From: Phoronis australis
Taxonomy: Eukaryota > Animalia > Phoronida
Direction of reading: 5' to 3'
DNA: 64,000 bases
Assembly: GCA_002633005.1 (NCBI GenBank)
Contig: NMRA01000005.1
Coordinates: forward strand, 893,001 to 957,000
Shown here: positions 3,245 through 48,587 of the stretch, piece by piece
How the letters are laid out: each line of letters begins with the position of its first letter
Numbering within the stretch: the stretch's first letter is position 1
Position numbers and translations under genes: made by a program
The notes under the pieces: generated by a model
Databases searched by the model: none
Seen by the model: only the letters and a program-made list of their open reading frames with translations
What the model was told of the DNA's origin: nothing

Positions 3245-3533
3245 ATGGATTGTTACGATGACCCTACCTCTACAGATGCTGAGTGGAAAAGTATTCAGCA
3301 GAATACCTTTACGAGATGGGTAAACGAACATTTGAAGCGGGTTAATAAACAAGTCTATGATGTCGAAACCGATTTTTGCGACGGTGTGCTTTTAATCGCT
3401 CTCCTGGAAGTTTTATCCAGGAAAATGATCGACCGATACAACAAGAGGCCTACCTTCCGACCACAAAAGATCGAAAATATTGCCATTGCGTTGAAATTTG
3501 TGGAGGACGAACAAATTAGATTGGTCAACATAG
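3245..3533 (+). CDS. ABD-only filamin paralogue, exon 1 (CH1)
   Basis: MDCYDDPTSTDAEWKSIQQNTFTRWVNEHLK...IRLVNI-G; donor GTAAGA at 3534, phase 1, same position as in the downstream filamin. Confidence 0.92.
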
Positions 3534-3860
3534 GTAAGACTTGAATGCAAGTATGGGTTTGTATAGCTCGTTTGAACTCAATATGTCGATTTGTAGTGCT
3601 ACAATAGTCGGAATACCTCCGTTGTTCCCATGTATCTACATGTATTCAGCACTGAAGACCTACCAAGACAATTTATCTGCCAGATTAAGTATCAACGGGT
3701 GCCACCTGGCCGCAGTTGGGTCTTCTTATAGCTATCTGAAACTAGTTTGATAGTTCTGCATTATATAACTCGGTTTTGTTGTCTGTCGCATATGCTGTGT
3801 TGCCGTTTTCAGAGCATTTATACAGTGTAGGTTCCATCACAAATTGCAATTAAGCCCCTG

Positions 3861-4326
3861 TCTATGGAATTCCAAGCCTGTCAGTCGTGAACTTACGCGT
3901 TCGGGGTTTACAAATTAGCGCGTTAATCTAGGCCTATTTGCATTAAATTACGCGTTAGTTGTGACGTCACCACAGGGATAGAGTTTAGTAGCTGTCTCGC
4001 GGCTACACAAACCTCGCAAAATCGCCTGTTCTCATTTAAAATACACATACGTATCTCGCGAAGTCGTGCTTCTCAGCTAGGTCCTAGCGTGAGATCCTAG
4101 CGTTACTGAAAATTCTACCTGGGTAGATTACTAAGACTTGTACATCAGTAGTAGTAGCAGTCGTAGATACTACTAGGCCAACTGTACAAATTGTTGCAAT
4201 CAACCCATTTTCAGGATGAATGACGTCACAACTAACGCGATGTTTAATAGACGCAAGCTTAGTTAACGTGCTAACGTGTAAAATCCGTACAAATTAACAA
4301 CTGACCAGCTTGGGATTTCATCATAG
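3861..4326. mobile_element. MITE with ~110-bp imperfect terminal inverted repeats
   Basis: CTATGGAATTCCAAGCCTGTCAGT...CGCGTTAGTTGTGACGTCA (3861-3969) mirrored by TGACGTCACAACTAACGCG...ACTGACCAGCTTGGGATTTCATCATAG (4221-4326). Confidence 0.7.
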
Positions 4327-5336
4327 TTACGTATTTTGGCTTTTAAGATTAGTCGTGCGTTCCGCGTACACGTGAGATCCTCGCTCCTAGGCTAGATCCG
4401 ACACATGGCCATGAATTACACTAAGAAGCAAATCAGCTTCCTTTGTAAGATCGTTGCGTCTACGGAACGCAGCACCAACCATCGTATGATCACGTTTTAT
4501 GCAACGACAGGGTTGGTCGAGCAACTTACAATCGATGGCTCTAGTTGTTGTACCACCTCTTGATCTGTCCCGATTAATGATAGGTCTACGTGGTGCGATT
4601 TTTTTGAGCTACGCAGGACCTTATCGACAAGTCTGTGTGTGTATACCAAAGTATCAGCAAAACTATAGATTTGAACACAATAAAGATATATATTTTCCGT
4701 AAGCAGAATTTGATTTTTTCCTTTTAACCAATTAGCCATTCATTGGGTCACGTGACCATGTCTTTTTGTAAGTTATCAAAAAGATAGGTTCACTGGTAGA
4801 AAACAACGATATCAATAACATGACAAAATTTATTTGTCACGAATGTTCAAGATGAAATCCCAAAAACGTTAATTTTCTTAAATTTTCGCTTTGTTTTCCT
4901 TTTTTCAAAAGCAGCTTTTGTCTTTTTCCATGCAACCATTAAAGTCTTATTTTAGTCCATTTTGAGAAAAAGAGACATTTTAAAAGTAATTTCTATAATC
5001 ATTTTAGAGAACAGTGCATAAAGTATATTATCTGAGAGTTCCACAACAATTTGATCTGCTGTTTCTGAGATATGATGTTCCGAAGTAAATTTGGACATTT
5101 TTCTAGGGTTGAAATTAATCTCAGCAAAGACCTGGATATATATTGTTGTCAGGGTTCCGTATCGAACCCAAAAAATGACACTAGTACAATCGCACTCGGC
5201 CATGAATAAACCATCAAGACCATAATTTATGTTTGCACTACAGCGCAGCTTGAGACGCTGTAACAACCGAGTGATGTGGCCGCAACAATGACTGAAAAAG
5301 GAAACAAATCAGAGAAAGAAGGAGACGCCGGGCGTG

Positions 5337-5470
5337 CGTTCAGTAGACGCTAGGACCTACGAGCTAAAACCTAGTAAAAGTCACGTGCTCTCATTTAAAA
5401 TGCATTGCAATATCTCGCGTAATCTCGCGAAGTCTTGCTTTTTAGCGAGATCCTAGCGCGTTACTGAACG
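5337..5470. mobile_element. Short MITE, dispersed family (related copies ~4030-4110 and ~53795-53922)
   Basis: TIR CGTTCAGTA..CGCTAGGA / TCCTAGCG..TACTGAACG; internal CTCATTTAAAAT...TCTCGCGAAGTC.TGCTT..TAGC..G.TCCTAGCGTTACT shared by three loci. Confidence 0.7.
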
Positions 5471-5598
5471 GGAGGCGGTACTATGTCCGTCTAGCGTGTG
5501 GACGTTAGATCATTTCAGGTCAACTGTTTAAACCTCAGGAAGGAACTGGAGACGGAAACACAAGGGTGACTTGTGACATTGTCAATGGCATGCGCCTA

Positions 5599-5908
5599 CA
5601 GTAGCGGAAAGATGCCATAAGGGGGGGGGGGCAACATCCTTGGGGAATTGGTCAAAACGCCGTTGTATGTGCACAGACGGCCCGAAAGTTGCGGGGGTCG
5701 AGGACATACACCTGCTGTTCGGAAAATCTATCGGTAGGCCTAGACTAAAAAAATACGGGAACGTGTTTCCGCGTCTGAGCGCGCCCCTCCCTCCTCCGCT
5801 ACTCCTGATCTCAATATTTCCTCACGCTTTCACGCTGTTGCTGTTTCATTTTGCTTGCAGCAGCCATGCAAGGGGGGCCCTGCCCCCCCCCCCCTAAATC
5901 CGACTACG
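5599..5908. mobile_element. hAT-like non-autonomous element (poly-G/poly-C subterminal type)
   Basis: CAGTAGCGGA...poly-G ... poly-C TAAATCCGACTACG; no TSD recognised. Confidence 0.5.
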
Positions 5909-6244
5909 CATGTTCCACGAACTGACACCCACACTGCCATGCAATGACACCATTCACAGGCGAGCTGTGGAGCCGGGCCTAAAGCAGGCAATCACCTTAC
6001 GATCCATCTGTGGCCACCGCAAGCAGAGACGAGACTTTGTGCTACTCGTTCCGAGTCATTACGGCAAAAGCTCCCTGGAGATCAAGCTAGGAAGTGGCGG
6101 TCGCAACAGTGGCAGAATACGAAGGCGAGGAGTTCTTCCTTACTGCGGGTAGACGGCGCCATTGAGGTATCAATATGTTTCCCTTGTAACTGTAAGTTGC
6201 CTATTTCAAGTACCATGATTACATTTTTTGCTTTACTTGTGCAG

Positions 6245-6493
6245 ACGCTAGCGACATCTTGAAAGGTAATCTAAAACTGATCCTGGGCCTGTTATGGACT
6301 CTTATTCTGAAGTACTCCATCTCTATACCTCTCACGGATGACGACACGACGGATGAAAATAGCAAGCAGACTCCCAAGTCCGCCCTGATGCGTTGGTTAA
6401 ACACCAAGATGCCAGAGAAACCCCTCACCAACTTCATCCGTGACTGGACGGATGGCACTGCCATTGCAGCTTTGGTGAACGCTGTTGCACCAG
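6245..6493 (+). CDS. ABD-only filamin paralogue, exon 2 (end of CH1, start of CH2)
   Basis: Acceptor TGTGCAG at 6244; (D)ASDILKGNLKLILGLLWTLILKYSIS...DWTDGTAIAALVNAVAP; the homologous donor position reads ATGAGT (6494-6499); read-through meets TAG at 6499-6501. Confidence 0.88.
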
Positions 6494-6694
6494 ATGAGTA
6501 GTTCTGATTGCGACAAGCAGCAAAGTCCTGCACCATGTTTAGATCTGGCGAGCTTCGTTGTTTTGGTGACTGCAAATTAGTGAGGGTACTAGACAGCCAC
6601 ACGAGCTTCTAATCATCCACACCAACAACCACAAAAACAACCGAATCCTAATTCGCAAAATGATGACTCGAGTGGGCTTAATTCTTTACCGCAG

Positions 6695-6792
6695 GTTTGT
6701 ATCCCGACTGGAAGAACTGTAAGCGAGAGAATGCTTTGGAGAACGCCAGTAAAGCCATGGAATTGGCTGAGAAGTGGTTGGACATACCACAG
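6695..6792 (+). CDS. ABD-only filamin paralogue, exon 3
   Basis: Acceptor TTTACCGCAG at 6694; (G)LYPDWKNCKRENALENASKAMELAEKWLDIPQ; donor GTAGAT; 98 nt, same length as filamin exon 62140-62237. Confidence 0.9.
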
Positions 6793-7502
6793 GTAGATAT
6801 AGCGTCGTGCTTTCTGTAATCCAGTCACGCGTAGGTGCAGTAATTGCCACATTTGCATTGTTACCAAGAGACTGAACAGCTTATTCGCACCTTCTTTTTG
6901 CTCTTTATTTCCAGAAAATCAGGAAAAATAACGTAAATCATACATGTATGAGATCAGTAGGAAATTTCTGACAGTGCGATTGTCCGTCTTCCTAATAATA
7001 ATTGACAGAACAGTTACCCTCTTTAGCCGCCCTCATGTAGGGGTTATTATAACGTGGACGATTTGGTTATCTATTAGTCTTCTTCTTAAGTATTGTAGAC
7101 AACAGGCCTCAGTACACGCCAAGGTAGTTCTCACTACCTGATGACTTCGAAAATGGGAAAGAACCCGAGTGTTAACCGACCACGCGTAGTTCACTTGTAG
7201 TATCGTATTCAAGGCCTCGTGCACAAAGTGACCCGTCCGTCACGGTCACCGAGCTAGGCCTTTTGGTTTCGTAAAATCGGTCTCTTGTTTTTTCTCACCA
7301 ACACAAGTCATAGGCAATAAATAGACCAACATGGACCGTGTTCAAATTTGTAAGTTTATAGGTTTGGCCTGAACCCCATTAAACTGCGAAGGGGTTTTTC
7401 TGAAACGTTTTCTAGAGTCGCTGACGGTTTCTTCGTTCTCGTTGGTAATTTTTCTCCAAAAAATTTGAGGGTTGTCAAAGTTTACAAAGCATTCATTTTG
7501 TT

Positions 7503-8642
7503 CATAGGCGGATTTAAGGGGGGGGGCCAGGGGGCCNCCCCCCCCCCCTTGGCTGCCGCAAAAAAATAAAACAGTAAGAGCGTGGGGAAATGTTGAGTTT
7601 ATTAATTAACCCCGGCAATTAAAATTATACGGATGAAAAAAGATTTAAATGTGTGCAGTTTTAGTGTTGGGGGGGGGCTCAAATCCAATTTCAAGTGTCA
7701 AATTCGGAACACGGCGCATTCGTAACGGAACTATGGTTAAGTATAGGCTCTCCTGCGATATCCCAGGCGACCGGCAGTGACGCTGCGCACTACAACTCAG
7801 TTTCCGTCGTCTGCTCCACTGTGCAATGAAGAAAATTTAATTCATTTTTAANGGGCTCAAATCCAAATTCAAGTGTCAAATTCGGAACACGGCGCATTCG
7901 TAACCAAACTATGGCTAAGTATAGTCTCCCGCGATATCCCAGGCGACCGGCAGTGGCGCTGCGTACTACGACTCTGTTTCCGTCGTCTGCTCCACTGTGC
8001 AATGAAGAAAATTTACTTCATTTTTTAAAGAAAATGGAATCTGAGTGACGATGAAAAACAGAAGCTGCTGGTAAGATGTGTTTAATCGAAGCCTTAGTGA
8101 ATCACGCGGAAACTCGCAATACTCTCTTTGTCAAACCTTATCTTAAGACGATTTCCAAAGCAATCCCGTCATTATTGCTAACACGAAAAACGGATTTGGT
8201 CTTTTGGGCATTTGAAGACTATTTTAAATACGACAAATTTGTTAAAAATTGATGGCACAAAATATAAAACGTGTAATAAGCATTACAAGAAGCAGTAGGT
8301 TTAGCGCAAACGCTTTAGACCATAAATAAGTAGGTCTCCTAGAAAAGGATGAGAAGTTAAGTCGTGGTGGTGTAGTGGTAATACACGCGCGTTCTATCCG
8401 CCAATCCTCCAGGTCGTGAGTTCGAATCTGTTCGACACGCTCTCCGTTTTTTTTTTTGCCTCTTTTGTCTTCAGGAATCAAGGAAAATGCTTGATTTTTA
8501 GAGGTAAAAACAGAAAAATGTCTTGGGCGGGAGGGGGGCAAACCGACCTCCCCCCACTTCGGTGCTATGCGCATCAACAATTGTGGTTCAGTTTGCGCAA
8601 ATGTTTACAGCCCCCCCTTGTGATATCCTAGATCCGCCACTG
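7503..8642. mobile_element. Non-autonomous DNA transposon with 5-bp TSD (hAT5-like), with internal ~177-bp tandem duplication and tRNA-like segment
   Basis: Ends CATAGGCGGATTTA / TAGATCCGCCACTG, flanked by TTGTT on both sides; duplicated block 7675-7851 / 7853-8028; A box TGGTGTAGTGG and B box GAGTTCGAATC at ~8362-8440. Confidence 0.65.
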
Positions 8643-9082
8643 TTGTTTAGTAATCTGTCAATAGGCCAAACCGGGTTTGGTGTCCTTGTGAGGCAGAGAT
8701 TACGTTTTCAAAACTTAGCATGGCAGACTTGGTTTTCATTTTGAAATAACTGTACAAAATGCAAAACCGATGTAACGGGAGAGTGCCCCGGTTAGTTCAC
8801 TAGGAACCTGCATGTAAGCTCATTGATTGAATGTCGGAATATGAATGGCCGGGTGATCTGTTCAATCTAGCAACTTACTTGAGTGCAAATGGACACTGGA
8901 TTCCTCTACCCTGCCATGTTTTTGAAACTATGTATTCTGTTGGTGTCTCTGGGTACACCCTGAAAAGTTATTTTACACCAGTTCAGTTGAAAGACACAAT
9001 GTTAACTCGATTATCAACTACATCTCTAGTAGTTCACTATTCACCCGCCACTGCTTGACAATGTACAAACACTCACTTGCAG

Positions 9083-9196
9083 ATACTCATGCCAGATGAA
9101 ATGACCAATCCAAACGTGGACGAAATGAGCATAATGACGTACGTATCCCAATTCATCGAGGCCAAGCCGAAGCCGGGCACACCTCTCGGAACATGA
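9083..9196 (+). CDS. ABD-only filamin paralogue, exon 4 (terminal)
   Basis: Acceptor CACTTGCAG at 9082; ILMPDEMTNPNVDEMSIMTYVSQFIEAKPKPGTPLGT*, the end of filamin CH2; TGA 9194-9196; AATAAA at 9647-9652. Confidence 0.88.
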   Translation: MLMPDEMTNPNVDEMSIMTYVSQFIEAKPKPGTPLGT

Positions 9197-9734
9197 ACTA
9201 CGTAACACAGTCAAGGAGTCGTTTTGCACACTGCAAGAGTTTATAAAACCACCTTTGGTCGTCAAAAGAAATCTTCACACATTCAAAAACTCACAGTTTG
9301 GTACTGCCACCAAGTGGACTATGCTCGGCCAGCGCATAAATTGACACCTAGTGGAAAGTCCGCTCACCAGCAATATCAAACCGCCAGTTCGTTTCCAAGC
9401 CCACTAATCGTCCATATTAGGAGTAAAGGTCGAAGTAAAACCACGCAAATAGCAGAAGCTGGGGTGCATTAAATTTAACTTTTACTAATTAAAGACGTGT
9501 TTATACATGTAGCCTCTTTAACCTACTAATTTCCTACTTACCCAAGCTTCAGGAGCAAGCTTCAGGAGAGGATTTAAATTAATTGAATTTTCAGTTTAGA
9601 AATGTGGAGATGGAGGTAACTGGGTGTATGTACTGAATCACTTTTAAATAAAAAATCCACAACTAATGTTTTTTAATGCAATAGCCTTTTAGTTTTGGAT
9701 TCCTAGTTCTCATTTGGTCAAACAAATCCTGAAT

Positions 9735-10955: not shown

Positions 10956-11021
10956 TCATGAAGCTAGCTTACTAATGTCCTCATACTGTATCCCATCGAT
11001 TACACGGCCATTGAGCGGACC
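10956..11021 (-). CDS. KIN: KIN17 coding exon 9 (terminal)
   Basis: Acceptor TTTCTAG; GPLNGRVIDGIQYEDISKLAS*, the conserved KIN17 C-terminus (YEDISKL). Confidence 0.93.
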   Translation of the reverse strand, partial: GPLNGRVIDGIQYEDISKLAS

Positions 11022-11628
11022 CTAGAAAGAAATGAAGCGGTTTTCAATGCAATTTCAAACTTGGTTTAAAGCTGCAGGACGTTTTCAGTTCCTGCTTAAT
11101 AAACATGGACTAAAGAAATACGTTAGTAGATGTTTTGCAGGATGCGAAGCAACATAGATTTTCACCCCATTTCTCTTGATGTCATGAAGCTAGCCTTTTA
11201 CTACACAGCAGAAGCTCGGCTGCAATTTGTGAAACTTTGTGTTGGTTTCCCCTTCATACGGCTAGAGACCTAGTGTGAGGTTATGTAACATGATGGTGAT
11301 TTTGTCTCACTTTTCTGATAAGATTGGAAACCCACAAAGGTTCTCTCTGGCCAATGGACCTAAAATCCTCTTGTTTGTAGAATATCAGTTTTGACATTCA
11401 GTTGAAATTGAGAGATAACATGAACTGAAGAATTTCATACAACATAATTTGATGCCAATAAACAGTCCCACATTGAGGTTAACACTTTGCAATCAGAGTT
11501 CCCTGGCTAAATGACGCAAAGCACTCAGATAATGAAGGACAGACAGACAGCATTGTGAATCAAGATTGTGTCAGAGACGCACTAAATGCTAAGTGAGATT
11601 TTACGCCAAATGGTTGTAAAGAACGTAC

Positions 11629-11729
11629 CGCGCTTATCTTGACCTCACAACAAAACTTTTTCTCGTCGACTCTTGTAATCACTGCCTTCTCGCCTCTGTA
11701 ACCACCGTTCACAATGAGCACTGGCTTGC
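11629..11729 (-). CDS. KIN: KIN17 coding exon 8 (second KOW/SH3-like)
   Basis: (G)KPVLIVNGGYRGEKAVITRVDEKKFCCEVKISA; AG/GT boundaries, phases 1 and 0. Confidence 0.93.
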
Positions 11730-12908
11730 CTGCAAGAAATGACATATTTGTATTTACCCACAATGCCATGCATGCGTAAGGCACTTAGTCCACCAATAAA
11801 CTTTCCTAACATGGTATTTTCCATTAAGATTAAGTTCACATTTGACATTATGTTATTCTGATGTCAATTAAGTTTTACGGTGGGAGTTGCAATACAGGTA
11901 TTTAATTGTTAAAGGTTGAGTCCAAGCAAGCTCAATAGTGCGTTAATGGCCTACCTTTCAAAACCCCAATAAATTATGTCATTATGTTTCTGTTCAAGTA
12001 GTGGACGGTACAATAAAATGTTAGCGTTTTTAACGGGTTGTAAACTCACCGAGATTCAGTCGTTCACATTTTATTACTGGCTAGAATCAACATCTCGTCG
12101 CATAACTAGTTTCTCCCTTCTATACCAAAAGACTCAGTAGAATAAAAGTTATACCTATAAAAGCATCACGGAACTGGGTCAACGATGTTACCAGCCAGCT
12201 TCCTGAATATGAACTGGCGACTGCATCGCATTCATAATCCAAGAGTACATGATATGGTACCTGATGCCTTCTACGAAACTGTGGCACTAGAATGGACCTA
12301 TCATAAGCTCCGCTCCCTTGCGAAAAGATTGGTCATTTAAGCCATCACTCAAAATCCTGATGAAGATTGGCATCAACTCATCAAACGCTACATTCCCAGA
12401 AACACTTTTAAGGAAGTTTCAAATGTATCTTGAAATGGAGTAAAAAAATTTGAAGAAACCAAAATCTCTCGAAAAACACTGGCTGCTGAAACAACAATAA
12501 AGGACAAAATGGGCGCGGCTTTTGAGCATTAGAGAACATAATTAACTTCAGCTGGTGCAGCCCCACCCCCTAATATGCCTGGCACATTCACACCCCATGT
12601 GAGGGCGTGATGTAAAAAGGTTCGAGAACTAAACCTTGTAAAAAGTTGAATGCATCAGGTGCAATTTTATTGTGACAAAGTTCTCAGTACTTGTGCACCT
12701 AATGGGAGCTCACAATTGTTATGAAGATCCCCCTCCCCCAAGCTCCCCAGTTCCTGTAACCTTAATACCCATACCTGCACTTAGTAGGTTTCGGGTGAAG
12801 GCAGTCTTGACATTTATCATGAATTTTGCATACTGTCTAGTCCTGTGGGCACCATAGATGTATGTTTTACAGACACCCAAATTAGAATTTCGGTTAAAAA
12901 TAACATAC

Positions 12909-13131
12909 CTAAAGCAGGTATGACGGTCTCCAGGTGAGTTTGGTCAACCTTGAGCTTGTCACCGCTGTCAATCATCTTGATAACAGCTGTGTACCTGTCA
13001 ATCACTTCGTGTACCACCGCCTTTCTCTTGTGGTATTTGTCGCCAAGTCGTTTTGTGACCACCTTGACGACGATGTCAGGATACAGCCAGTAGTCTTTGC
13101 GCTGGACTTTCTCTTTTTTCTTCTCTTCAAA
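12909..13131 (-). CDS. KIN: KIN17 coding exon 7 (first KOW/SH3-like)
   Basis: FEEKKKEKVQRKDYWLYPDIVVKVVTKRLGDKYHKRKAVV...KLKVDQTHLETVIPAL-G; canonical splice sites. Confidence 0.95.
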
Positions 13132-13874
13132 CTAAAACACAACCCTACAGAACTGGAGTGGGATCACCATACGGCCATTCTCCGATACAGTAGCAACATG
13201 AGGAAAAAGAATCTCTCTAGCTAGATGGTGGTATGAGAACTTTAAGGGCAAATTTCAGCACTACCTACAGGTCACTTGTGTCTAGGATGAAGGTTTAGTG
13301 CAATCATAGACTATAGTACATGGACCGCCAACTCCGTATATTTTCAGTGGAGGAAATCTGTGATCTTACGTATAAGCCGTGACGTTATTCACTAGCGACA
13401 AATGGCAAAATTAGCAAGTTTTACTTCCAGCAAGTACGTCGTCTGCTAATCATGGTCGGCTGTTATGTGGTCAGGTGCCAAAGGCACTTACGATACCAAC
13501 AGTTCTACTGTTGGAAGACTTTGAACAGCGTTTTAATGCCAAATTTTATTTTTCGTTGTACTGGAGAGTAAAATAGATGCGAGAATTTCCCGTCACAATA
13601 CACTAACCGGAAACTGAAATTGGTAATTTAGGACAGTGGCACCTCCTCTAGGATAGTGCGCAAGAAAACGGAGTTGCAAATCTGTTGTCTGTAATCCATG
13701 GTACAACCAGATTTTACATTTTTATAATTTCTGAATGATCATCATTCGGTCAAACTATGTGGCATTGTGGAATAACAAATGCATGGAACGATTGTTTCAC
13801 AAGCACCACCTAACCCAGTGAATTTAAAGTTTCTCAATCATGTAAGTAGCTAGCAACGCCACCTACTGACTCAC

Positions 13875-13992
13875 CTCCATAATTTCATCTAAGGCTGACT
13901 TGCGTTTCTGACCTACAATTGGTTTTTGATTGACAAGAGTGGGTGTGTCTTTCTTCTTAGATGCCAATGGATTGGATGAGGTGGGAATCAAT
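13875..13992 (-). CDS. KIN: KIN17 coding exon 6
   Basis: LIPTSSNPLASKKKDTPTLVNQKPIVGQKRKSALDEIME; conserved KSALDEIM; TTGTAG acceptor, GTGAGT donor. Confidence 0.9.
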
Positions 13993-15105
13993 CTACAAGT
14001 AAAAGGTCATTTTTGATTTGTTTCGGACTCCAGTTATCCAATGCACTCCTTCAAAACAAAACGTTACATAAGATTTTCTTTGTGTAGTTACTTAATTTCT
14101 TTACTCAAAAATTGAAAGTTAGCATGCAGGCACTGGCAGCTGTAACATTGTCAGAATTTTTCCAAGATTTTATGGTACAAGATTAAACCGGAAAATTCAA
14201 AGTGACAGTCTATTGTCTGACTTTGGTATCCAAGATGTTGCCATCTGTACGATTCAATATGGTGCAACAAACCACAGGGCAACAACTTTCAATTTTACTG
14301 TATTGCCTCGCCTTTACGCCATATCTGAATGAATGCCTTTTTTCGTAGCCTTTTCTACCCAAGTGGGTTACATTGGCACATGTGCATAAGTTTCCCTTAT
14401 AAGCCCAGGTAATGTCCTCTGCATACACTCGTACATTGATTCGCAAATAGGCGCGTCTGTTTTGACTACCGCTGTGCCTTTTAATGGCAATTTTTTTTAA
14501 TTTGCCACTGTATATTTGGAGTTCCTCGGCATGTTTTCAAGAAATTTGGTAAACAGTTTTGTATTACCATTTGAGGAACATTTAGCCCATGGGCCTATAT
14601 CCGAAATTTTAATGCCTTTTCACGCTTTCTAAATGTAATCTCAATTCCTCGAAATATTCGTCTTTGAAATTTCGCTTTTGACATAGTTTCAAAAGCAGAT
14701 ATCGTACAATGCAAATCCAAGTAAGTGCACTTATCATTAGTTAGTTCTTCACAAAGCATCATACACACGTACTCAGGATACCTCTTTTTTGCCAGATCTT
14801 GAGTTCTCAACTATTTCCTTTACTTTCCATTTTTTCTGCCTCGACCTTCGTTGATAATTTTAAAGAGGCTTTTAACTTTAGTATGTTTTGTTTGAAGCGA
14901 AATAAGTGCAGCTTAAATTTTGTAACATTTGCCAACTTGTACATAGTGATTTTTAAGCCCTGAAAGTGCGTACAATACCGTACAGATAAATCAAAAACAG
15001 CAGCCCTGAAAGCACTACATATATTCTCTACGCCAAAAAACAAAATTCCTCACTTCAATTCTGCTTCACCATCACTATGAATTAATTAACATATTTAACA
15101 CATAC

Positions 15106-15160
15106 TTTGGCTTTGTCACATCTTCTTGCTTTTTCACCACGGCACCAAAATTGAGCTTGA
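15106..15160 (-). CDS. KIN: KIN17 coding exon 5
   Basis: (V)KLNFGAVVKKQEDVTKP; 55 nt bridging phase 1 to phase 2 as the neighbouring exons require; TTTCAG / GTATGT. Confidence 0.82.
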
Positions 15161-16708
15161 CTGAAATGAAAATAAAACATATAAATAACTACATAGAATA
15201 AGAACACGTCCGACTGTTGTGATCAATGCATCACATCAGGTCAATTTAAAATGCATTATACGTAACTTCCTATGCCAAACACACACAAAAGCATTTTGGA
15301 CACTCGTAGTTTAAGCTGCATATTCCCCGTTTAGATAGCTGAAAACAAAAAATTGACTTGCGCCTTATACTCTCATGAAATTGGTCTCATAATATTCCTC
15401 ACTCTGATAGGATTCCATTTCCATAACCAACAAGAACATCAAAACCATCAGCAATTCAAGAAAAAAAAACACTTCAGACTTTAATGTGGTTGGCCAATCC
15501 TAATATTGTGGATTTGACAATGGCACATGTACTGTGACTTGAGTTGTCCCCTCATTTCACAATAAGTCAAGATCCAATGAGCATGCTAATGGTTTGAATC
15601 CCAAAGCACTTTGTTACAAATTCAACATTGACAGCTTAAGTGGGGTGAAATACTGTGTTAAAGACACCTTAGGTGGGACAGGCCTCCACAACAATCTGCT
15701 ATTAAAAGAGCAAGTAGCGATATTTGATAATGCTCTGGTAGAGAATCAAAATAAATATCTATATTCTGTCACCATTTTCAGAGTTTTACCATGCCTAAAT
15801 ATACACAGTTTACAATTTCAACCCTAAGCTCAGTGTGATTAGAGTCCTGAGCCGTTACACTACAACACATTCAAGCAGGTCATTTGGTTGCTTTTGCTTT
15901 TTCTACATGCATTCGCTTCAAATGGAAAAACAAGTAACAGTGCTTAAGCAAGTTTTGAAACCACATGATTTACACACACTGAGTAAAGAAAATCTCAGGT
16001 AGACTTTCTTTTGTAAAAAAAACATACCACCAACTTGATTTCCACAAAATGGAGACCAGAACCAACTATGCGCTTTTGGCCTAACAATAAATGAAAGGCA
16101 CGAGACAAAAACATACATTCAAAATAAATAAAAATAAATACTTATACCAACAAATAAATCAAAAAAGCAGAAATAATTAACTGAAACGCTGCACAGGATA
16201 AAACGAAAGGCGTACAGAAATTCTCCACTTATTTTTCATACAAACAATTGCCCATATTTTTAATTCCTCAAATTTACATTGCTACAGATAGTGGAAACTT
16301 CACCAAATGTTGTTTCACGGCATTGAAAAAGAACGAACAAAGCTAGTAATAGACAAAAATTTTCTTAATCTTTAGTTTTGTGAAGAAATATAACAAATTA
16401 GAATTTCACTTGCCAACCATGTTGTGTGCTAAATAAGAAAAGAACTGCTATGCACTAAGTAGGAAATGAATTTAAAATGAAACGAATAATGAAACGAGTA
16501 TAAGTAAAATAAAAAAGATAAGAACATGTGACAATGGATGTTGCAGACAGTAATCATCAAAAAGTATAACGTACAACCTAATTAAGAGAAGAATGGTATC
16601 ATAGTCTACATTCAATTTGATAAGTGACAGTTTTAAAAAACAAAGGATATTCTTCAAAGAAGTCAAACACCAGTAAATACTCTAGATAATTACGGAAAAC
16701 ACGCCCAC

Positions 16709-16942
16709 CTTTTTCGTCCTCGGTCTCCCTCTTCAACTCCGTGTAATCCGCCTGCGGTGCACCACGTGTCGTCTCAGCACCACGCCTCACTTGTTCCTCG
16801 ATGTAGCGTGCCGTGCGTTCCTCGTCATCCAAATCCATCTTTTCCTTATTTTTCACAGCTTCCTGTTTCCTGATCGTCTCAGGGTCGCGGTCAATGTATT
16901 GAATGAACCAACCCTTTTCGGTCTCATCAACGACACATTTGC
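16709..16942 (-). CDS. KIN: KIN17 coding exon 4
   Basis: (G)KCVVDETEKGWFIQYIDRDPETIRKQE...DDEERTARYIEEQVRRG...YTELKRETEDEK. Confidence 0.95.
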
Positions 16943-17327
16943 CTAAATATACACAATCACGGTGTTAATATCATGTCTAGATCAGTCCAAGTAAGGGTCA
17001 GCTGTTCAGTGCCTTGGCTTCTAGCCCTGACCCACTATTTATTTTGTTAGGAAATTGTCAGAATATTACCCACAATTAACAGTCAAGACTGGGTTCAATT
17101 CAAATGCTTGGTTATATAAAGTAGTCTTACTGATGAAAGAGTTAATCAGCTGATCGAAGCAAAACTCACGAATTACATACACTTGGGTAGAAATAGAAAA
17201 ACTATGCATATTTGTGCACGAGCAATACACATGTGTATGCATGAATGGCCGCTTGACACCGATAACTTTGCACCGTGCCAGATGCACCGTGTCAAAAGTC
17301 TAAACCCCACTTAAGAGACTGACTAAC

Positions 17328-17494
17328 CTTCCCGGCCGAGGTACTTAACAAACTCCGTCAGAGTTTCCCACTGGGTGGCGTTCATGTGCAGATGTTCTTT
17401 AAAGCTGATGTACTCCTGGTACACAATGTTGGCGTGCACGCGTTTGGTGCCGAACCGACGACGCAGCAGCTCCATATAACCATCCTCAAACTCT
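17328..17494 (-). CDS. KIN: KIN17 coding exon 3 (winged-helix region)
   Basis: EFEDGYMELLRRRFGTKRVHANIVYQEYISFKEHLHMNATQWETLTEFVKYLGRE-G. Confidence 0.95.
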
Positions 17495-17699
17495 CTGGAA
17501 GTGAAGATAAAATTGTGAGCATCAGAGATGAATAGATTTCAACAGAAGTTTAAGTCACATAAAATTCAGTGGCAACACTCGCACTCAAAAGTTTTATTAG
17601 CGTTCTTGTTTAGTAAGACCTCAACTAAAAAATGGTTCTGCGAGTCGGAAAGAATGAGGAACAAAACAATGTTCAACGAGTGTGACTAATACTCACGCT

Positions 17700-17850
17700 G
17701 TAACAGCTTTCAGGGGCACCGAGGGGTACTCTAACCAAACGTGGCCAGTGCTAACATCCCCTCCCTAAGGAGGTACATCACCAGGAGCCCCCGGTGCAAT
17801 AGCTCAAGCCATAGAATTGAACTCTTGGACACATGACCTCGCAGGTTCAG
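17700..17850 (-). mobile_element. SINE-like fragment in KIN17 intron 2
   Basis: B-box-like GAGTTCAATTC on - strand followed by a GC-richer body (CCTCCTTAGGGAGGGGATGTTAGC). Confidence 0.35.
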
Positions 17851-17909
17851 TATGTGTCAAATGCTTCCATAAAATAACAGTAGACCAATGATACATGCAA
17901 GTCACTCAC

Positions 17910-18004
17910 TTGGAGAACGAGTCAATGAACTTGTCAGGACTTTCAGCAAATATAAGCAGTTGCCTCTGGTGAGACTCTGACATTGTGTGACACTTGAAGC
18001 CATT
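17910..18004 (-). CDS. KIN: KIN17 coding exon 2 (zinc finger, second half)
   Basis: NGFKCHTMSESHQRQLLIFAESPDKFIDSFS; TTTCAG / GTGAGT. Confidence 0.95.
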
Positions 18005-18399
18005 CTGAAAGGGAAAAAATCTTAACAATGAGTATAAATATCTAGCTATGAAAATTTACTTTCCCCTAGTGAATCTTACTTGGAAACTTTGGAAAGCAAA
18101 TGAAACGAGTTATTAAATACAAGAAAAGAAAAACTTAAATGACATATTTTTCTTTGAACAACGAACTGGATTGAAAACGAGATCATCCAACAAAATATTT
18201 TTGCAAATTGGAATCCAAACATTACTACACCAAACTCGTTTTTAATATTGAATTGGATTCCAAACACATAATAACAGACCAAAAAAGAAATACTTAAAGA
18301 AACAGCAAATTTTTATAAGCTGCTGTATATTAAGAAAAGTGTTAATTTTGATATTAAACAAAAATTACAAGAATTTCTTTTTTCTGTCTCATTTTATAA

Positions 18400-19340
18400 A
18401 TGGCAAATTAATGAATGTACATGACTTATATATGACATCATGAAGTACGCTGAAAACCAACAAATATCAGGACTCCTTCTGCAAATTGATTTTGAAAAGG
18501 AATCCTTCAAGTAGTGGATATGTACATTTTACAATAACCCAGTCGCACATGTAACTTGAAATGGCTTTTTGGTTTTAAAGGGTTTAATCACTGAAGGCAC
18601 AGAGTATAAAATCACTCGGTATGCAAACGATGCGTTTATTTTAGACAGTTCTCTGGGTTCGTTGGCAGAGATGATGAAGGTATTGGATTTCCATCACTAT
18701 GCAAATATTTCTGGCTTGGAAAATTAATCATTCCTAAACAAATGCTATCTGGATAGGGAGTAAAAACTTTTCTAAAGAGGTCTATCAACATAGACGTTGG
18801 AAATTAAAATGGGGTTTACAATGTTTCAGCTCCTGGGATTGAATTTTAATGTTAATTTAGACAACATGCTAAATGATAACTTTGAATGAAAACTCTTGAA
18901 AATTAAAAAGTAGTTGAAAACATGATCTAAAAGAAAACTCACTATATTTGATAAAGTGACACGTTATAAAATACTTATTTCAAACATTATCCATCTATTA
19001 TCTGCATTATCTAGTCCATCTCTAACATTTTTAAATAAAGTAAACGATTTGTCTTTCAAATGTATTTGGAATAACAAACCCAAGATTAAGGGAGCCATAC
19101 TTACAAAAGGCATGGAAGAAAGTGGTGTTAAGATGAAACATTTTAATGTAGCTCTTAAACTTTCTTGGATAAGGACACTTTTTATTTCTCAATCCAAAAC
19201 ATGTTATTATTTCAACTGGCAATTATTTTTTCAAATGGCTTTCCATGTTGTGAGTTTTTCATGTCAAAATGCTTCTGCAAAACTAGTTGAAACTGGTCAA
19301 GCTAACTAATATTAAATGATTGGAAGCCTTTGGACAATAC
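18400..19340 (+). mobile_element. Decayed L1/Tx1-type LINE reverse transcriptase fragment in KIN17 intron 1 (antisense to KIN17)
   Basis: LIYDIMKYAENQQISGLLLQIDFEK (DFEKAFD motif), YKITRYAND (decayed YADD), NISGL, IWIGSK, FKCIWNNKPKIK...ESGVKM...ALKLSWIRTL; several stops and frameshifts. Confidence 0.8.
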
Positions 19341-20407
19341 TTGTTGAGGCGGAGTTTGGTATCACAGAGAATGAAATTTTAAAACACAGATTTTTTTGAT
19401 AGACAAAGCCAAACAGTAACCACTGTCAGAGCCAACATTCAACATATCAAGTGCACATTCAACTGCAAAGAAACCATACAAAAGACCAGCCAAACACAAT
19501 GGCACATAAACAGCTAGCAGACAAGACTAAATGACAGTGCGGTCCCTAAGGTTGAATACAAGTATCGCGTTACATATTACACTCCTGAATAAATGAAGTT
19601 GATTGAAAAAATAGTCAACCAAGAAATGTTAACGGTGAGTGAACAATGAGGCCAATGTTGATAAATGTCAGAGTCAGGTGCGTTGGTTGAGATTCTATTT
19701 ACATCGAATTAAAAGTACAATAGCAAAGGCTTGTACAAATTCCGGAGGTGCTCTGATACATAGACTAAAGGGGAGGGGCATTCCATGAGCAATTTGATGG
19801 TGAAAAACAGTAAGTACAATTTTGTCATCACTTTGTAGCCTTGTTGAGTGTTGTTTAAGCGATGCTCAACATGTGCGTTCATATTCTAATTCATCACCAG
19901 TTTAAAATAGCTGCAACAACTGTCTGGTAAAATTGATACTAAGCAAAGACATGAATACCAGGGCATTCCCAAGGAAGTAATATCCAGACTTCGGAGCTGC
20001 ATGAGTGGCAGAGTCCTGTATTATGGGTAAGGTGGTGTCGCGACACTTTCAGAGTCCAGATCAAAACAATAACTGGAGCGCACAACCGTCAAGGTGGTAC
20101 CCAACTTAATACTAAGTAACCCAGTAGCTTTGCCCAAGACAAACTAATTTTACTAACCTCCCTAGCTTCCACTTCCATCTCCATGGCAACCCGAAAAGAC
20201 ACCGCCGTTGCCACAAAGCTAAAAATACTGGCACAAGACTACACTGAATAGATCATTAAGCATGCTCAAGATGGCACCAGAGAGCAGAAAATGCCTGAAT
20301 GGGCAAAACACACAACATCCACTTGGCAGCATATCCACACAAGAACTTCCCATGGGGGAACCCCAGGGGAGAGAGTGAAGTGGACAGTATCTGTCCTTAC
20401 GCCTCAC

Positions 20408-20527
20408 CTCATCTCGACACTGTTTTTGACACATCTGGCAGTACCAACGCAGTTTCTGGAGACCCTTGCTCTTGATGCGGTTGGCAATCGCCTTCGGCGT
20501 CAAAAATCCTGCCTTCTCTTTCCCCAT
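20408..20527 (-). CDS. KIN: KIN17 coding exon 1 (zinc finger, first half)
   Basis: MGKEKAGFLTPKAIANRIKSKGLQKLRWYCQMCQKQCRDE, donor GTGAGG; the nine exons sum to 1179 nt = 392 aa + stop. Confidence 0.97.
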
Positions 20528-37481: not shown

Positions 37482-37827
37482 ATGTCCTATGCAAATGATC
37501 CTCAGAAAGAGGCTGATTTCGACGAGGACGACGAAATGCCGGCGACCGAGAGAGAGCTCGCTGAGGACGCTCAGTGGAAGAAAATACAGAAAAATACCTT
37601 TACGAGATGGGCAAACGAGCACTTGAAGACGGTGGAGAAGAAAATCAACGACCTCGAACATGATTTATCCGACGGCTTACGTTTAATCGCATTGGTGGAA
37701 GTTTTATCCGGGAAGCAGTTCAAATCCAAAAACAAGCGGCCCAACTTCCGTACACAGAAGCTAGAAAATGTCACCTTGACACTGAAATTTTTGGAGGACG
37801 ATGAACAAATAAAGATTGTCAACATCG
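37482..37827 (+). CDS. FLN: Filamin, coding exon 1 (CH1)
   Basis: MSYAND...[31 protein letters not shown]...IKIVNI-G, typical filamin/cheerio N-terminus; donor GTAAGT at 37828. Confidence 0.96.
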
Positions 37828-40789
37828 GTAAGTGCTAAACTTTAACGTTTTGATTTTGAAAATAACACAATTGTTTGTTTGCTGGACGGGTACGCCTTGT
37901 TTGACCTCTGTGTGTCGGGTCACCTGTAAGCAGGTTTGCACACGTCAAAAGACCCGCTTCAATATAGTTCAATGAGAGAGTGACTCGGGTTATTGTGAAC
38001 TTGAATGGAATTCTTTACACATGAATGAATGCTTGCTTTTGTTGTTCTTGATAGAAGTGGGTTATTTGATTTTGTTGTTGGTTTGACTTGTTTTTGCACT
38101 GTTGCTGGTATATTAGTGAGTGTACTTGAAACAAACAGGGCACCAAACGTATGTAGGTCTAAGACACAAGGCAACGCTAGGGTTCTGGGACAACACAACG
38201 TTTTCTACATGCTTGATGTTCCTGCTATGCCACTTTTGGTGTGCTCGGTGTTATTTTACTTTCTTAAAAGTTTTTTTAGAAGATTTAAAATATCTATGCC
38301 ATCTTAGGATGAAGCCAAGTAGACTGTAGATTGATCAAGTAGTGAAAACTATTGTTACCTAGATTTGTAGAAGTCTGGGGATTTGGTATGGGACTGTGAT
38401 ATTTTAGGTCTTGTGGCATGTTTTTTCACTATTTTCGTAGTAGCAAAAGCCACCATGATCATAGTATGCGATATTCAACCAATTTTTTTGCCTGGTTGCC
38501 CATATGAACATCGTATTTATGAGGGTGGTGTCACCTTCTGTATAAACAGGTTATTGATATACCTTGACGTACCACGCCTTCATTCATGACGGAAGGTTCA
38601 TGGCCAGTAATCTTGGTCTACTTCACAAACACCAAGTTAAACTTTTCAAACCTCTGACTCTACTTCCCAAATGGAGAAATTTACAAATTGACAAAATGCT
38701 GAAATTGCTTAAATCTCTGCATCACAATCAAGTTTTAAAGTACAGCCAGTCATCAGAACATAAAACCAACCTTGTGAATACTGACATTAACTTCTAGAAC
38801 CACCTCTATTTGATTACTGTAATGGGCCCCGGCCTTGTGGCCCAAACACACCTGATGTACGGCAAAAGGCCGTGCCACCTGCACCATTTTTTTAATTGAT
38901 TTCAGTGGTCACATGAAATGGTTTAATGTTTCCTTAGCATTGGTTCTAAGTTTTCCTACTTTCTTATGACCCAGAAACTAATCAATAGACATTCCTGCCC
39001 ACTGCAAGGTGTGGATGGCCCACTTGCTAAGCTATTGTTAATTTATTGAACCACTGGAGTCCAGATTAAATGTAGTTATGCTTAAGTACACACAGTATAC
39101 AAAGTTCAGGAGATCGAATAGTCATCAGTGAGTGATGTTATGTAAGTCAAGATTTGATATTAACTGGACTTGACTGCATTATAAAAATAAATTTCTATGT
39201 ATACACTTGCCATTCACTTCTCATTTGTGAAAAAGAATTTGGGCAATGTTCAATATATTGGTTGGCTGCTTGTGGTAGAAACCATGTTTGCAATGGTGAT
39301 GTTATTTGTTACCCTTAGTCATTTTTTGTTAGTTTAGATTTTTTGTCAAGAATACTGACTTAGTTTGCTATAACTCTCATGCCATCTAGACATGTAAATT
39401 CTGTGTAAATCAGTGTTCATAAACAGGAGGCTTCAGGAAGACATCGAGAACATAATTTCACCTAACCATTACAAAACAAAATATTACCTATGGTAATGGC
39501 AGTGCCCAATGAAGCGAAAATTAGCATGTACCATGACATAGAAATTCACGTAGTTTTTTTTTGCAATAGAGCTGTGTTTTCCAAAATCATTTCTGACCAT
39601 GTGAAGCCATTTTTTATTTGCAAGCCCGCTGCAAATTACGTCAGCATCTAGACATGTGACCTTTAGTTGCGGAATCCTCTGACTAACTTGGACTGTTGAG
39701 TAGAACTCATTTGCATACATTTTGGGGTCAAGGAATAGACATTTACCAAAAGAGTACTGTCTGCCATAGGTTTTTCCATGATGTGGGTCTGCGAATATTT
39801 GTGAATGCCACGGGACTAGTGCAGAAGGTGATATGTTTTGTAATGAGTGTGAAAGTAGCTCATGCAAAATTTCTTCAAAGATTTTAGTTGACAAATCTGT
39901 TGAGCGGCGGGCAGCAGAGCAGCTGTGTAATAGTCACTTTGCAGGGTGTTCCACGTTTTGAGAATCAAGTTTTTTTCCATTGAATAACGGGCATCAAACT
40001 GGTTCTCGAAATCTGGGTCCCCTGCAAGTGGCTACTGTCAATCTTCTGACTGAGTACCAACTTTAATTTTACCCTCCAAAGTTCAGCACTGTTTATGACA
40101 GTGGTTTTCTGTTTAGTGTCATTGAACTTGTTGGTAAATTTCTTCCATGTTCCCGGAATTTTATGACTCAACTGAAGGAATTAAACTAGATAGTCTGTCC
40201 AGTGTCCAACACATGCAAGATAGAGATCGTAGTAGAGTTTCAAATCCATGCAGTATTTAGTGAGAACTTGTACGCCTTCTATTTCTAGTTTTGATTTCAG
40301 AATATTGCTTTTGACCTCAAGTCCATTGTCGTGATCAATTGCTTTGAACACATCAACTACCCTTATTTATTTGTTTTTTCATTTCTGCTAGTTTGACATT
40401 TTATATATAGGATCCCACAATGATAAGGTACTGGATGACTAATAATCAGTTCTGACCAGTATTTCCTCAAGTCGGTTGTTGTATGCTTTTGCTGTGTAGT
40501 TTCTGTGGGTTAACAAATAGCTAAATAGTTTGTCATTATTGGAACTAGCTACTGGTTTTAGGACTGGATGATGTAATCACATTCTTTGTCAGTTTCATCA
40601 CCAAGCTCCGGGGGGTGGGGGGGGGGGAAGAGAATCTGTTCTGGGTGAGATGACTACTCTTTCTGTACTTCTCAATCCAGCTCCCACAGCTGAAAATCCT
40701 GTGCCTAAACCTATACACTAGCTGTAGCCTCCAAACCCATTGGCTTCAACCTACCTAAATCCAGTGGCGGAATTGAAACACTGTACAAC

Positions 40790-40935
40790 TCTCACGTGGT
40801 GTACATAGCTGTCCAAAAGCTATAGCGTTCACATGGTATACATAGCCGTCCAAAAACTTTAGCGTTCATATGGTGTACATAGCGTTCACATGGTATCGCT
40901 ATCTAAACCCTTCAACAGTTACGTGGTATTACCGT
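40790..40935. repeat. Degenerate ~37-bp tandem repeat (CACATGGTGTACATAGC.GTCCAAAA.CT.TAGCGTT)
   Basis: Three to four imperfect copies. Confidence 0.75.
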
Positions 40936-41059
40936 CTATAAAATTCACAAGTCTGATATTTCTTCTTTTCGTTCAGTCCCGAATCAGAGTTCAGGTCACA
41001 ATTCAATAAACGTTAGAATGATTTGCCTTGTGATCAGATGTTTTATCTGCCTTTTTTAA

Positions 41060-41270
41060 TGTTTATTACGAAATCTTCAGAATACAATGAATATACAATA
41101 CCCAGAAAGCGCCAAGAGGCATTAGATCTGGTTAAAAAAACACAAAGAAGTCTATATACAATTATTATACACGAATACATAGAGAAGTTTCACAAGCGAA
41201 CACCTACGACTTTAACACTATTTCAAATTCCTGCATCCTGACTCATTGTTTGACCATGAACAAGTCTCTG
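41060..41270 (-). mobile_element. LINE 3' end related to the element at 2-461
   Basis: - strand AACCAGATCTAATGCCTCTTGGCGCTTTCTGGGT matches AACCCAGATATAATGCTTCGCGGTTTCTGGGT at 364-395, followed by AATAAA. Confidence 0.55.
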
Positions 41271-48451: not shown

Positions 48452-48587
48452 AGGTGTTGTTTATGGAGGTGTTGTTTATGGAGGTGTTGTTTATGGAGGT
48501 GTTGTTTATGGAGGTGTTGTTTATGGAGGTGTTGTTTATGGAGGTGTTGTTTATGGAGGTGTTGTTTATGGTGGTGTTGTTTATGGA
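48452..48587. repeat. 15-bp minisatellite (GGTGTTGTTTATGGA) x9
   Basis: Near-perfect tandem copies. Confidence 0.95.

What the first reader, a model, noticed from the sequence alone, without database searches (positions are those of the whole stretch)
3245..9196. Mini-filamin: an actin-binding-domain-only filamin paralogue next to the full filamin gene
Seen: four exons (289+249+98+114 = 750 nt, 249 aa) with the same intron positions and phases (1,1,0) as the filamin 34 kb downstream; about 60% amino-acid identity in exon 1 by manual alignment; no internal stops or frameshifts; TGA right after CH2 (...AKPKPGTPLGT*); no recognisable Ig-repeat exon in the 1.8 kb before KIN17. Known: filamins cross-link actin through an Ig-repeat rod and a C-terminal dimerisation repeat. 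Inference: strong divergence with an intact frame suggests long purifying selection on a monomeric CH1-CH2 protein that could bind F-actin without cross-linking, possibly competing with filamin.
Basis: partly seen in the sequence, partly recalled or inferred. Interest (0 to 1): 0.75.

Follow-up and report, generated by a model that had tools for sequence, protein, structure and literature searches.

The report
Rodless filamin from an overlooked lineage
This weakly expressed invertebrate gene encodes only the actin-gripping head of filamin, groups with similar short "filamin-like" genes of sea urchins, a feather star and a sea slug rather than with the full filamin next door, likely swapped DNA with that neighbour, and is predicted to coat actin filaments without cross-linking them, although one of its splice signals is abnormal and it may be decaying.

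Summary
The four exons are real (750 nt, 249 aa, phases 1,1,0). No filamin Ig-repeat exon lies anywhere in the window.

(1) Intron 2 begins AT, not GT. A DNA run shows the same base.

(2) The gene is not simply a truncated copy of the neighbour. Its CH1 groups with a second type-1 filamin lineage (N-terminal 'DPTxxDAEWK'), outside the canonical bilaterian filamins; sisterhood with the neighbour is rejected (AU p=1.4e-6 for CH1). Named members in urchins, a crinoid and a sea slug are also rodless (241-312 aa), whereas unnamed metagenome members carry rods (3,287 aa, 32 repeats).

Synonymous sites are nevertheless unsaturated against the neighbour (71/122 codons vs 48.6 expected), and CH2 carries neighbour-specific residues, which points to gene conversion. 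RNA is sense-only and weak (about 0.15-1.7 RPKM). Bin depths fit splicing at the predicted intron-2 borders, but no junction row was listed.

Actin binding, monomer state and competition with filamin are untested, and a recently disabled allele remains possible. The scan had no earlier filamin note. Verdict: new variant of a known kind.

The parts
3245..3533 (+). Exon 1: ATG, short N-flank with DPTxxDAEWK signature, most of CH1
   Evidence: PF00307 E 9e-15; best hits 68-75% to short or unnamed filamin-like proteins vs 57% to the neighbour; sense RNA depth about 1 in 3 of 3 raw-read RNA runs
3534..6244 (+). Intron 1 (2,711 nt, GT-AG, phase 1), full of high-copy repeats
6245..6493 (+). Exon 2: end of CH1 (ABS2, W142 equivalent), linker, start of CH2; switch from DPT-type to neighbour-type residues between aa 143 and 146 (about 6382-6391)
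   Evidence: max-chi permutation p=0.005
6494..6694 (+). Intron 2 (201 nt, phase 1) with non-canonical donor CAG|ATGAGTAG and AG acceptor
   Evidence: same base in DNA run X1; X5 depth stops by 6496 and resumes at about 6692
6695..6792 (+). Exon 3: middle of CH2
   Evidence: RNA depth below 1 in X5 and X6
6793..9082 (+). Intron 3 (2,290 nt, GT-AG, phase 0), repeat-rich at 7500-8650
9083..9196 (+). Exon 4 coding part: end of CH2 (E254 equivalent kept) and TGA, before the place where Ig repeat 1 begins in long relatives
9197..9662 (+). 3' UTR with AATAAA at 9647-9652; no Ig remnant
   Evidence: sense depth 4-8 at its 5' part in X5 and X6, falling to 0 after 9662
10956..20527 (-). KIN17 gene (coding span), lying between the two filamin genes; context only
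   Evidence: Pfam KIN17 domains; stop and ATG positions
37482..62237 (+). Canonical filamin, exons 1-3 (37482-37827, 59863-60120, 62140-62237); likely conversion partner; rest of the gene beyond the window
   Evidence: nests in spiralian canonical filamins 100/99

Best explanation
The locus is a weakly transcribed gene for a filamin actin-binding head (CH1-CH2) with no Ig rod; its CH1 groups with a second, likely pre-bilaterian-split type-1 filamin lineage ('DPT-type'), it likely exchanged DNA with the canonical filamin next door by gene conversion, and its product is predicted to be a monomer that would bind the side of actin filaments without cross-linking them.

Shown: exon structure, absence of rod exons in the window, sense transcription ending near 9650, tree position of CH1, unsaturated synonymous sites against the neighbour.

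Inferred: a duplication before the protostome-deuterostome split gave canonical and DPT-type filamins; the DPT copy lost its rod in several invertebrate lineages; conversion homogenised silent sites and part of CH2 while selection kept DPT-type residues in CH1, the actin-contacting half; the AT donor (otherwise an 8/11 match to U1) is leaky or polymorphic and keeps output low. From filamin biology: with no C-terminal dimerisation repeat and with the W142/E254 latch intact, the protein would be a closed, low-affinity, single-site filament binder that occupies sites used by filamin or other CH1-CH2 cross-linkers in a few cells.
For: Structure.

Tree: 43-row careful tree has the DPT group of 14 rows at 94/96 and canonical bilaterian filamins at 100/98, with the neighbour inside Spiralia at 100/99. 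AU rejects mini+neighbour (p=0.001 whole ABD; p=1.4e-6 CH1). 27 of 33 informative CH1 columns are DPT-type.

Rodless relatives: Lytechinus pictus and L. variegatus 257 aa, Diadema 258 and 272 aa, Anneissia 241 aa, ending 17-29 aa after the CH2-closing motif; the mini ends 17 aa after it (sequence). Three of these are on 52-82 Mb contigs, and L. variegatus lists at least 4 accessions for one protein. Plakobranchus is 312 aa with no filamin repeat.

Conversion: same codon at 71 of 122 identical residues vs 48.6 by within-amino-acid permutation (0 of 20,000). Pairs of the mini with three DPT loci are saturated (41/125, 50/134, 48/131). CH2 columns are neighbour-type in 11 of 16, against 1/10, 5/12 and 2/12 when Capitella, Ostrea or Candidula replace the neighbour; breakpoint aa 143-146, p=0.005.

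Constraint: 60 of 60 invariant columns kept; W142, K169 and E254 equivalents present.

RNA: sense-only depth on all four exons; X5 bin sums of 9 nt and 100 nt match a 6493-to-6695 splice and none of the four alternative donors or upstream exons tried. AT donors with good U1 pairing can be used in reporters (PMC6280755 passages). CH1 contacts actin and CH2 inhibits (PMC7688639, PMC6938246, PMC8810934 passages).
Against: The AT donor may simply inactivate the allele: PMC6280755 (human cells) finds AT sites enhancer-dependent and mostly in highly expressed genes. No junction row for any of the three introns was listed (the threshold is 3 reads and many rows were not shown), so splicing rests on about 3 reads' worth of bin arithmetic in one run from another sample whose donor base is unknown. 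Exon 4 plus UTR is 3-4 times deeper than exons 1-3 in X5 and X6 and absent in X7, which is unexplained.

The DPT group falls just short of starred support (94/96), and the rodless members are not shown to be one clade. All 3 of 15 metagenome loci that reach the end of CH2 continue into a rod. DPT-type proteins above 2,275 aa were not searchable by the length-limited searches, so the short relatives could be independent truncations or partial gene models.

For CH2 the AU test does not reject mini+DPT (p=0.53). Silent similarity is even along the gene, not patchy, and the fourfold-site distance has an interval of 0.5-1.9, so a slow clock is not excluded; one distant control pair also shows mild non-saturation (L003-L010 p=0.015). 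No protein, binding or localisation data.
Confidence: 0.5

Rival explanations
1. A formerly functional rodless gene that is now a null allele or young pseudogene: the G-to-A change at the intron-2 donor stops productive splicing, and the remaining RNA is noise or degraded.
For: AT donor in the assembly and in DNA run X1. Retention or the GT at 6498 gives early stops. Expression is about 0.15-1.7 RPKM, skewed to exon 4 and the UTR. The end branch is 0.43 against 0.11-0.23 for three unnamed DPT rows. All selection signals are historical.
Against: No stop or frameshift in 750 nt and 60/60 invariant columns kept. X5 coverage leaves intron 2 empty and fits the in-frame junction. The rest of the donor pairs well with U1 (8/11, like the other donors).
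Confidence: 0.25
2. A lineage-specific chimera: a local duplicate of the neighbouring filamin's first four exons whose CH1 was later overwritten by a DPT-type gene elsewhere in the genome. The rodless genes of other phyla would be independent truncations or incomplete models.
For: Silent sites are unsaturated against the neighbour in both CH1 (45/73 vs 27) and CH2 (24/42 vs 16). The mini shares the A-P-G intron with the neighbour, and genomic DPT loci L004 and L010 lack it. CH2 is sister to the neighbour (SH 87). Rodless rows do not form a supported clade.
Against: If CH1 had been overwritten by an ancient paralogue, its silent sites should be saturated against the neighbour, and they are not. 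Named rodless relatives from three echinoderm genera stop within 12 aa of the same point.
Confidence: 0.12
3. Exons 1-3 are an alternative 5' cassette of the canonical filamin gene: exon 3 (phase 0) splices over KIN17 into the neighbour's exon 4, giving a full-length filamin with a swapped actin-binding head, and exon 4 here is only an alternative last exon.
For: Same strand, matching phase-0 intron after exon 3. It would explain conversion and purifying selection. The neighbour's exon 4 lies outside the window, so no read could show it.
Against: It needs an intron over 57 kb that skips a promoter and three exons. Exon 4 and its UTR are the best-covered part. RefSeq models the urchin relatives as stand-alone 257-272 aa genes.
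Confidence: 0.07
4. One reading: an ordinary truncated tandem duplicate of the neighbour that diverged under its own selection.
For: Shared intron positions, dS about 0.9, adjacency.
Against: It would need convergence at 27 of 33 informative CH1 columns, including the N-terminal DPT motif. AU p=1.4e-6.
Confidence: 0.04

Closest known systems
Type 1 filamins (human FLNA/B/C, Drosophila Cheerio, C. elegans FLN-1), as defined in bioRxiv 10.1101/2022.06.28.497943 (passages) and PMC3143143 (passages)
   Same: Two tandem CH domains, 65/106 (CH1) and 53/104 (CH2) identical to FLNA; W142, K169 and E254 equivalents; ABS2 18/25. The best PDB hits of relative P0001 are filamin A and B ABDs.
   Different: No Ig repeats and no dimerisation repeat; separate gene; different N-flank (DPTxxDAEWK vs E[RK]xLAxDAxWK); falls outside the canonical bilaterian clade. 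The described short isoforms of FLN-1 keep 8-9 Ig repeats.
RefSeq/GenBank 'filamin-A-like' short proteins: Lytechinus XP_054750668 and XP_041460319, Diadema XP_072181164 and XP_071507587, Anneissia XP_033105581, Plakobranchus GFN93507, Acanthaster XP_022095231
   Same: DPT motif, CH-only architecture, same tree group; 57-65% identity to the mini over the ABD.
   Different: Automatic annotations only; no paper held names six of these accessions. The Acanthaster protein has three CH domains and the Plakobranchus one an 84-aa tail. Their synteny was not testable.
Type 2 filamins (Jitterbug, FLN-2)
   Same: A second invertebrate filamin paralogue lost in vertebrates.
   Different: They have three CH domains plus Ig repeats; the mini has two CH domains and is far closer to type 1. 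No type 2 sequence was in my trees.
p32CH nesprin-2 (PMC3388047, passages)
   Same: A natural CH1-CH2-only product without rod repeats; it localises to focal adhesions when expressed.
   Different: An alternative transcript of a giant spectrin-repeat gene in human cells, not a separate paralogue; a different family.

Membership tests
Filamin (type 1) | N-terminal tandem CH1-CH2 of filamin type | tested here: met
Filamin (type 1) | Rod of Ig-like filamin repeats | tested here: not met
   No repeat in six frames of the 64-kb window, best E 11, positive control E 3e-48; sense RNA ends by 9662. Splicing to exons beyond the window is not excluded.
Filamin (type 1) | C-terminal dimerisation repeat and cross-linking | tested here: not met
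   The stop follows CH2 directly; self-association through the head was not tested
Filamin (type 1) | Binds F-actin through CH1 | not testable with these tools
   Residues conserved; no binding data
Canonical bilaterian filamin clade (FLNA/Cheerio/neighbour) | ABD groups inside the clade | tested here: not met
   Outside the 100/98 clade; AU rejects sisterhood with the neighbour for the whole ABD and for CH1; CH2 alone inconclusive
DPT-type filamin lineage (my label, not from a paper) | DPTxxDAEWK N-flank and diagnostic CH1 residues; grouping in the tree | tested here: met
   5 of 7 diagnostic columns DPT-type and 0 canonical; group support 94/96, just under the starred bar
Type 2 filamin (Jitterbug/FLN-2) | Three N-terminal CH domains followed by Ig repeats | tested here: not met
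   Two CH domains, no repeats; definition
Pseudogene | Disabling lesion and loss of productive transcript | tested here: inconclusive
   AT donor present, but no stop or frameshift, and depth fits in-frame splicing in run X5
U12-type (minor) intron | ATATC motif at the donor | tested here: not met
   Donor reads ATGAGT; motif from PMC6280755

The most novel reading that the evidence does not exclude
Invertebrate bilaterians keep a third, unrecognised filamin: an ancient type-1 paralogue that shed its rod and survives as a stand-alone actin-binding head. Here it has sat beside canonical filamin long enough for gene conversion to homogenise silent sites and CH2, while selection defends the actin-contacting CH1, implying a distinct filament preference. 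A leaky AT-AG intron throttles its dose, so it acts as a natural, low-level antagonist or conformational reader of filamin-bound actin.
Probability: 0.27. Interest if true: 0.75.

Novelty: new variant of a known kind. Interest (0 to 1): 0.5.

Why it matters
Filamins are understood as dimeric cross-linkers, and the classification I found recognises two animal types, both with rods. A rodless paralogue kept in echinoderms and spiralians would be a natural version of the isolated CH1-CH2 probes used in the lab, whose affinity and filament preference depend on the N-flank and the CH1-CH2 latch. The neighbouring pair offers a direct test of which CH1 residues set filament preference: they are the ones that resisted conversion. 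It also warns that 'filamin-A-like' annotations in invertebrates mix two old paralogues. If the allele is dead, the interest falls to filamin phylogeny.

Tried and rejected
No whole genome is held for this window, so other DPT copies in this genome, the neighbour's exon 4 and synteny in other animals were not examined.

The look-up of sequencing runs listed no RNA holder; RNA came from three raw-read runs added by species label, of which about 18% was read. X8 contigs covered only repeats (RNA status guessed; no evidence either way). No splice-joint row for the gene was listed in either lay (161 joint rows and 932 + 85 loose-end rows were not shown).

Search for long DPT-type proteins: 0 of the 120 listed hits of 798-2,275 aa carry the motif; longer ones were outside the range. 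Long members came instead from a DNA-motif scan.

An Ig remnant in the 88-aa ORF after the stop was rejected. A U12 intron was rejected (no ATATC). Alternative donors 6475, 6484 and 6498 and exon 1-to-3 skipping fit the X5 depth worse (0.74-0.77 vs 0.79 observed).

The ESM Atlas gave only generic CH clusters. The dN/dS of 0.31 is kept as history only, not as proof of present function. No structure or complex job was run: the spliced protein is not one window stretch, and no actin reference is offered.

Literature searches found no description of a rodless filamin paralogue; most subscription papers are not covered. The FLNA-actin cryo-EM paper and the Dictyostelium ABD paper were not held.

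Tree rows dropped: 2 for short coverage; the 43-row set is a chosen subset plus four metagenome rows.
Full report
Observation. The filamin 34,237 nt downstream has exons 37482-37827, 59863-60120 and 62140-62237 in the window, with introns at the same codons and phases. Identity is 55/96, 55/80 and 19/32 per exon and 131/210 overall. KIN17 lies between them on the minus strand, its stop 1,760 nt after the TGA. A profile of 161 filamin repeats finds no Ig exon in the window (best E 11) but scores a control locus at E 3e-48. One fact was missed: intron 2 starts with AT (CAG|ATGAGTAG), where the neighbour has GT. A contig of DNA run X1 spans 5873-7536 with no differing letter; that run may be the assembly's source, so it shows the base is in the reads, not that it is fixed in the species. 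Retention or use of the GT four bases on truncates the protein in CH2.

Expression. Three RNA runs of other samples were laid (about 18% of each read). Reads on the exons are all of one orientation, opposite to those on the KIN17 3' end, so they are sense. I estimate about 4, 6 and 2 reads on exons 1-3 and about 15, 18 and 0 on exon 4 plus UTR, roughly 1.3, 1.7 and 0.15 RPKM. Sense depth ends by 9662, next to AATAAA at 9647, and is about zero on the unique stretch that follows. No junction was listed. The indirect evidence is in X5: the bin 6488-6614 holds 9 nt and the bin 6615-6741 holds 100 nt, which is what two reads spliced from 6493 to 6695 give with their shared CAG. Four alternative upstream ends give 94-98 nt. 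This rests on about three reads from an animal whose donor base is unknown. The excess on exon 4 is unexplained. In human reporters AT donors are used when enhancers are present, also at +5, and are mostly seen in highly expressed genes (PMC6280755, passages); the donor here otherwise matches U1 at 8 of 11 positions (U1 consensus recalled).

Relatives. Exon 1 finds 91 proteins among 125 candidates, and the best are not canonical filamins but short 'filamin-A-like' proteins and unnamed ORFs at 68-75%. They share a DPTxxDAEWK N-flank (my label 'DPT-type'; 65 of 497 held proteins). Named members with a complete CH1-CH2 are Lytechinus pictus and L. variegatus (257 aa), Diadema setosum (272), D. 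antillarum (258, two), Anneissia (241), Plakobranchus (312) and Acanthaster (408, three CH). Five of these were scanned with Pfam and none has a filamin repeat. The urchin and crinoid proteins stop 17-29 aa after the motif that closes CH2; the mini stops after 17. Rod-bearing members exist as well: P0002 and 3 of 15 metagenome loci, the only three that reach the end of CH2, among them L015 with 3,287 aa and 32 repeats. Their organisms are unnamed. The size resembles placozoan filamin-1 (3,838 aa, 36 repeats; bioRxiv 2022.06.28.497943, passages), so they may be non-bilaterian, which I could not test. DPT-type proteins longer than 2,275 aa were outside my length-limited searches, so a long copy in echinoderms or molluscs is not excluded.

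Phylogeny. In a 63-row quick tree and a 43-row careful tree the mini falls in the DPT group (SH 91; 94/96, bootstrap not fully settled), sister to canonical bilaterian filamins (97; 100/98), with sponges outside. The neighbour nests among annelid, mollusc and flatworm filamins (100/99), so the host is likely a lophotrochozoan. Holding mini and neighbour together is rejected (p=0.001). Both types occur in crinoids (Antedon canonical, Anneissia short) and in gastropods (Candidula, Plakobranchus), so the split is likely at least as old as bilaterians. Rodless rows are not one supported clade, so one loss or several cannot be told.

Mosaic signal. Silent sites disagree with such an age. At residues identical in both genes the codon is the same in 71 of 122 cases against 48.6 under within-amino-acid permutation (0 of 20,000). 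The mini is saturated against three DPT loci, and the neighbour against the same three. CH1 is 79% identical to the best DPT row and 63% to the neighbour; aa 137-212 is 57% and 66%. Informative columns are neighbour-type in 6 of 33 for CH1 and 11 of 16 for CH2, with a breakpoint at aa 143-146 (p=0.005). The 13 DPT control rows reach at most 8 of 18 in CH2, and other canonical filamins in the neighbour's place give 1-5 of 10-12. AU rejects mini+neighbour for CH1 (p=1.4e-6); for CH2 they are sisters (SH 87), but mini+DPT is not rejected (p=0.53) and that partition has little power. Silent identity is higher away from changed residues (34/50 vs 37/72, p=0.05), as expected if selection removes conversion tracts that cover paralogue-specific sites. 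My reading is repeated gene conversion between old tandem paralogues with CH1 defended. Against it: the silent signal is even along the gene, its distance interval reaches 1.9, and one control pair is mildly unsaturated (p=0.015). The A-P-G intron is shared with the neighbour and absent from L004 and L010.

Mechanism. All 60 columns invariant in 12 comparison filamins are kept, as are the equivalents of FLNA W142, K169 and E254 and 18 of 25 ABS2 residues (region limits and K169 recalled). Published work places actin contacts on CH1 and the N-flank and makes CH2 a steric brake released by E254K; isolated filamin ABDs bind with Kd 7-47 uM (PMC7688639, PMC6938246, PMC8810934; passages). Filamin dimerises through its last repeat (PMC3143143, passages), which is missing here. 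The product would thus be a closed, weak, single-site filament binder. At about 1 RPKM, bulk competition with filamin is implausible unless expression is confined to few cells; a local role as a site blocker or conformation reader is more likely. All of this is inference.

Comparison and verdict. [quoted passage not shown] The nearest natural analogue I could read is p32CH nesprin-2, a rodless CH-only transcript (PMC3388047, passages). Ten literature searches gave no description of a rodless filamin paralogue or of the DPT lineage; the library lacks most subscription papers, and the preprint's sequence supplement was closed. The scan's own index had no filamin note. The gene fails filamin membership on rod and dimerisation but works, by prediction, like an isolated filamin ABD. 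I rate it a new variant of a known kind: best explanation 0.5, dying allele 0.25, interest 0.5.

Noticed in passing
window 9083-9662: Exon 4 and the UTR are 3-4 times deeper than exons 1-3 in X5 and X6, and X6 has a few sense reads in intron 3 (8647-9027). This may be 3' bias, exon skipping or a separate short transcript.
   Followed up: partly
window 3200-3244: CTCTGTCAG|GTGAGC 35 nt before the ATG could be a 5' UTR splice acceptor or donor; X6 has depth in 3034-3367 and none in 2700-3033.
   Followed up: no
L003 (minus strand): A DPT-type frame without introns for codons 1-212 is followed by a second, different copy of the CH2 middle part ending in the same GT donor; possibly mutually exclusive CH2 exons.
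   Followed up: partly
P0013, P0010, P0189: Multi-CH proteins with filamin-like CH domains: Acanthaster 408 aa (3 CH, DPT motif) and Elysia 453 aa (3 CH stretches), both without a Pfam filamin repeat, and a 643-aa record with three matched stretches, not scanned.
   Followed up: partly
window 943-1300: Palindromic satellite built from CCTATAGG-containing units, periods 21-123 nt.
   Followed up: no
window 1290-2400 and 18100-19350: Stretches that look like decayed non-LTR retrotransposon remains (Cys/His motif; reverse-transcriptase-like words). This is a recalled resemblance; there was no Pfam hit in the four ORFs scanned there.
   Followed up: partly
window 37828-59862: Intron 1 of the canonical filamin is 22,035 nt and holds several minisatellites (15-nt x9 at 48452, 26-nt x6 at 51378, 18-nt x4 at 58801).
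   Followed up: no
window 7675-8025 and 5872-5906/7505-7539: A 176-nt tandem duplication of a high-copy repeat in intron 3, and G/C-rich inverted arms that flank exons 2-3 about 1.6 kb apart.
   Followed up: no
window 10382-10956 (-): The KIN17 3' UTR is expressed at depth 8-20 down to about 10380, so the two genes end tail to tail about 700 nt apart.
   Followed up: partly
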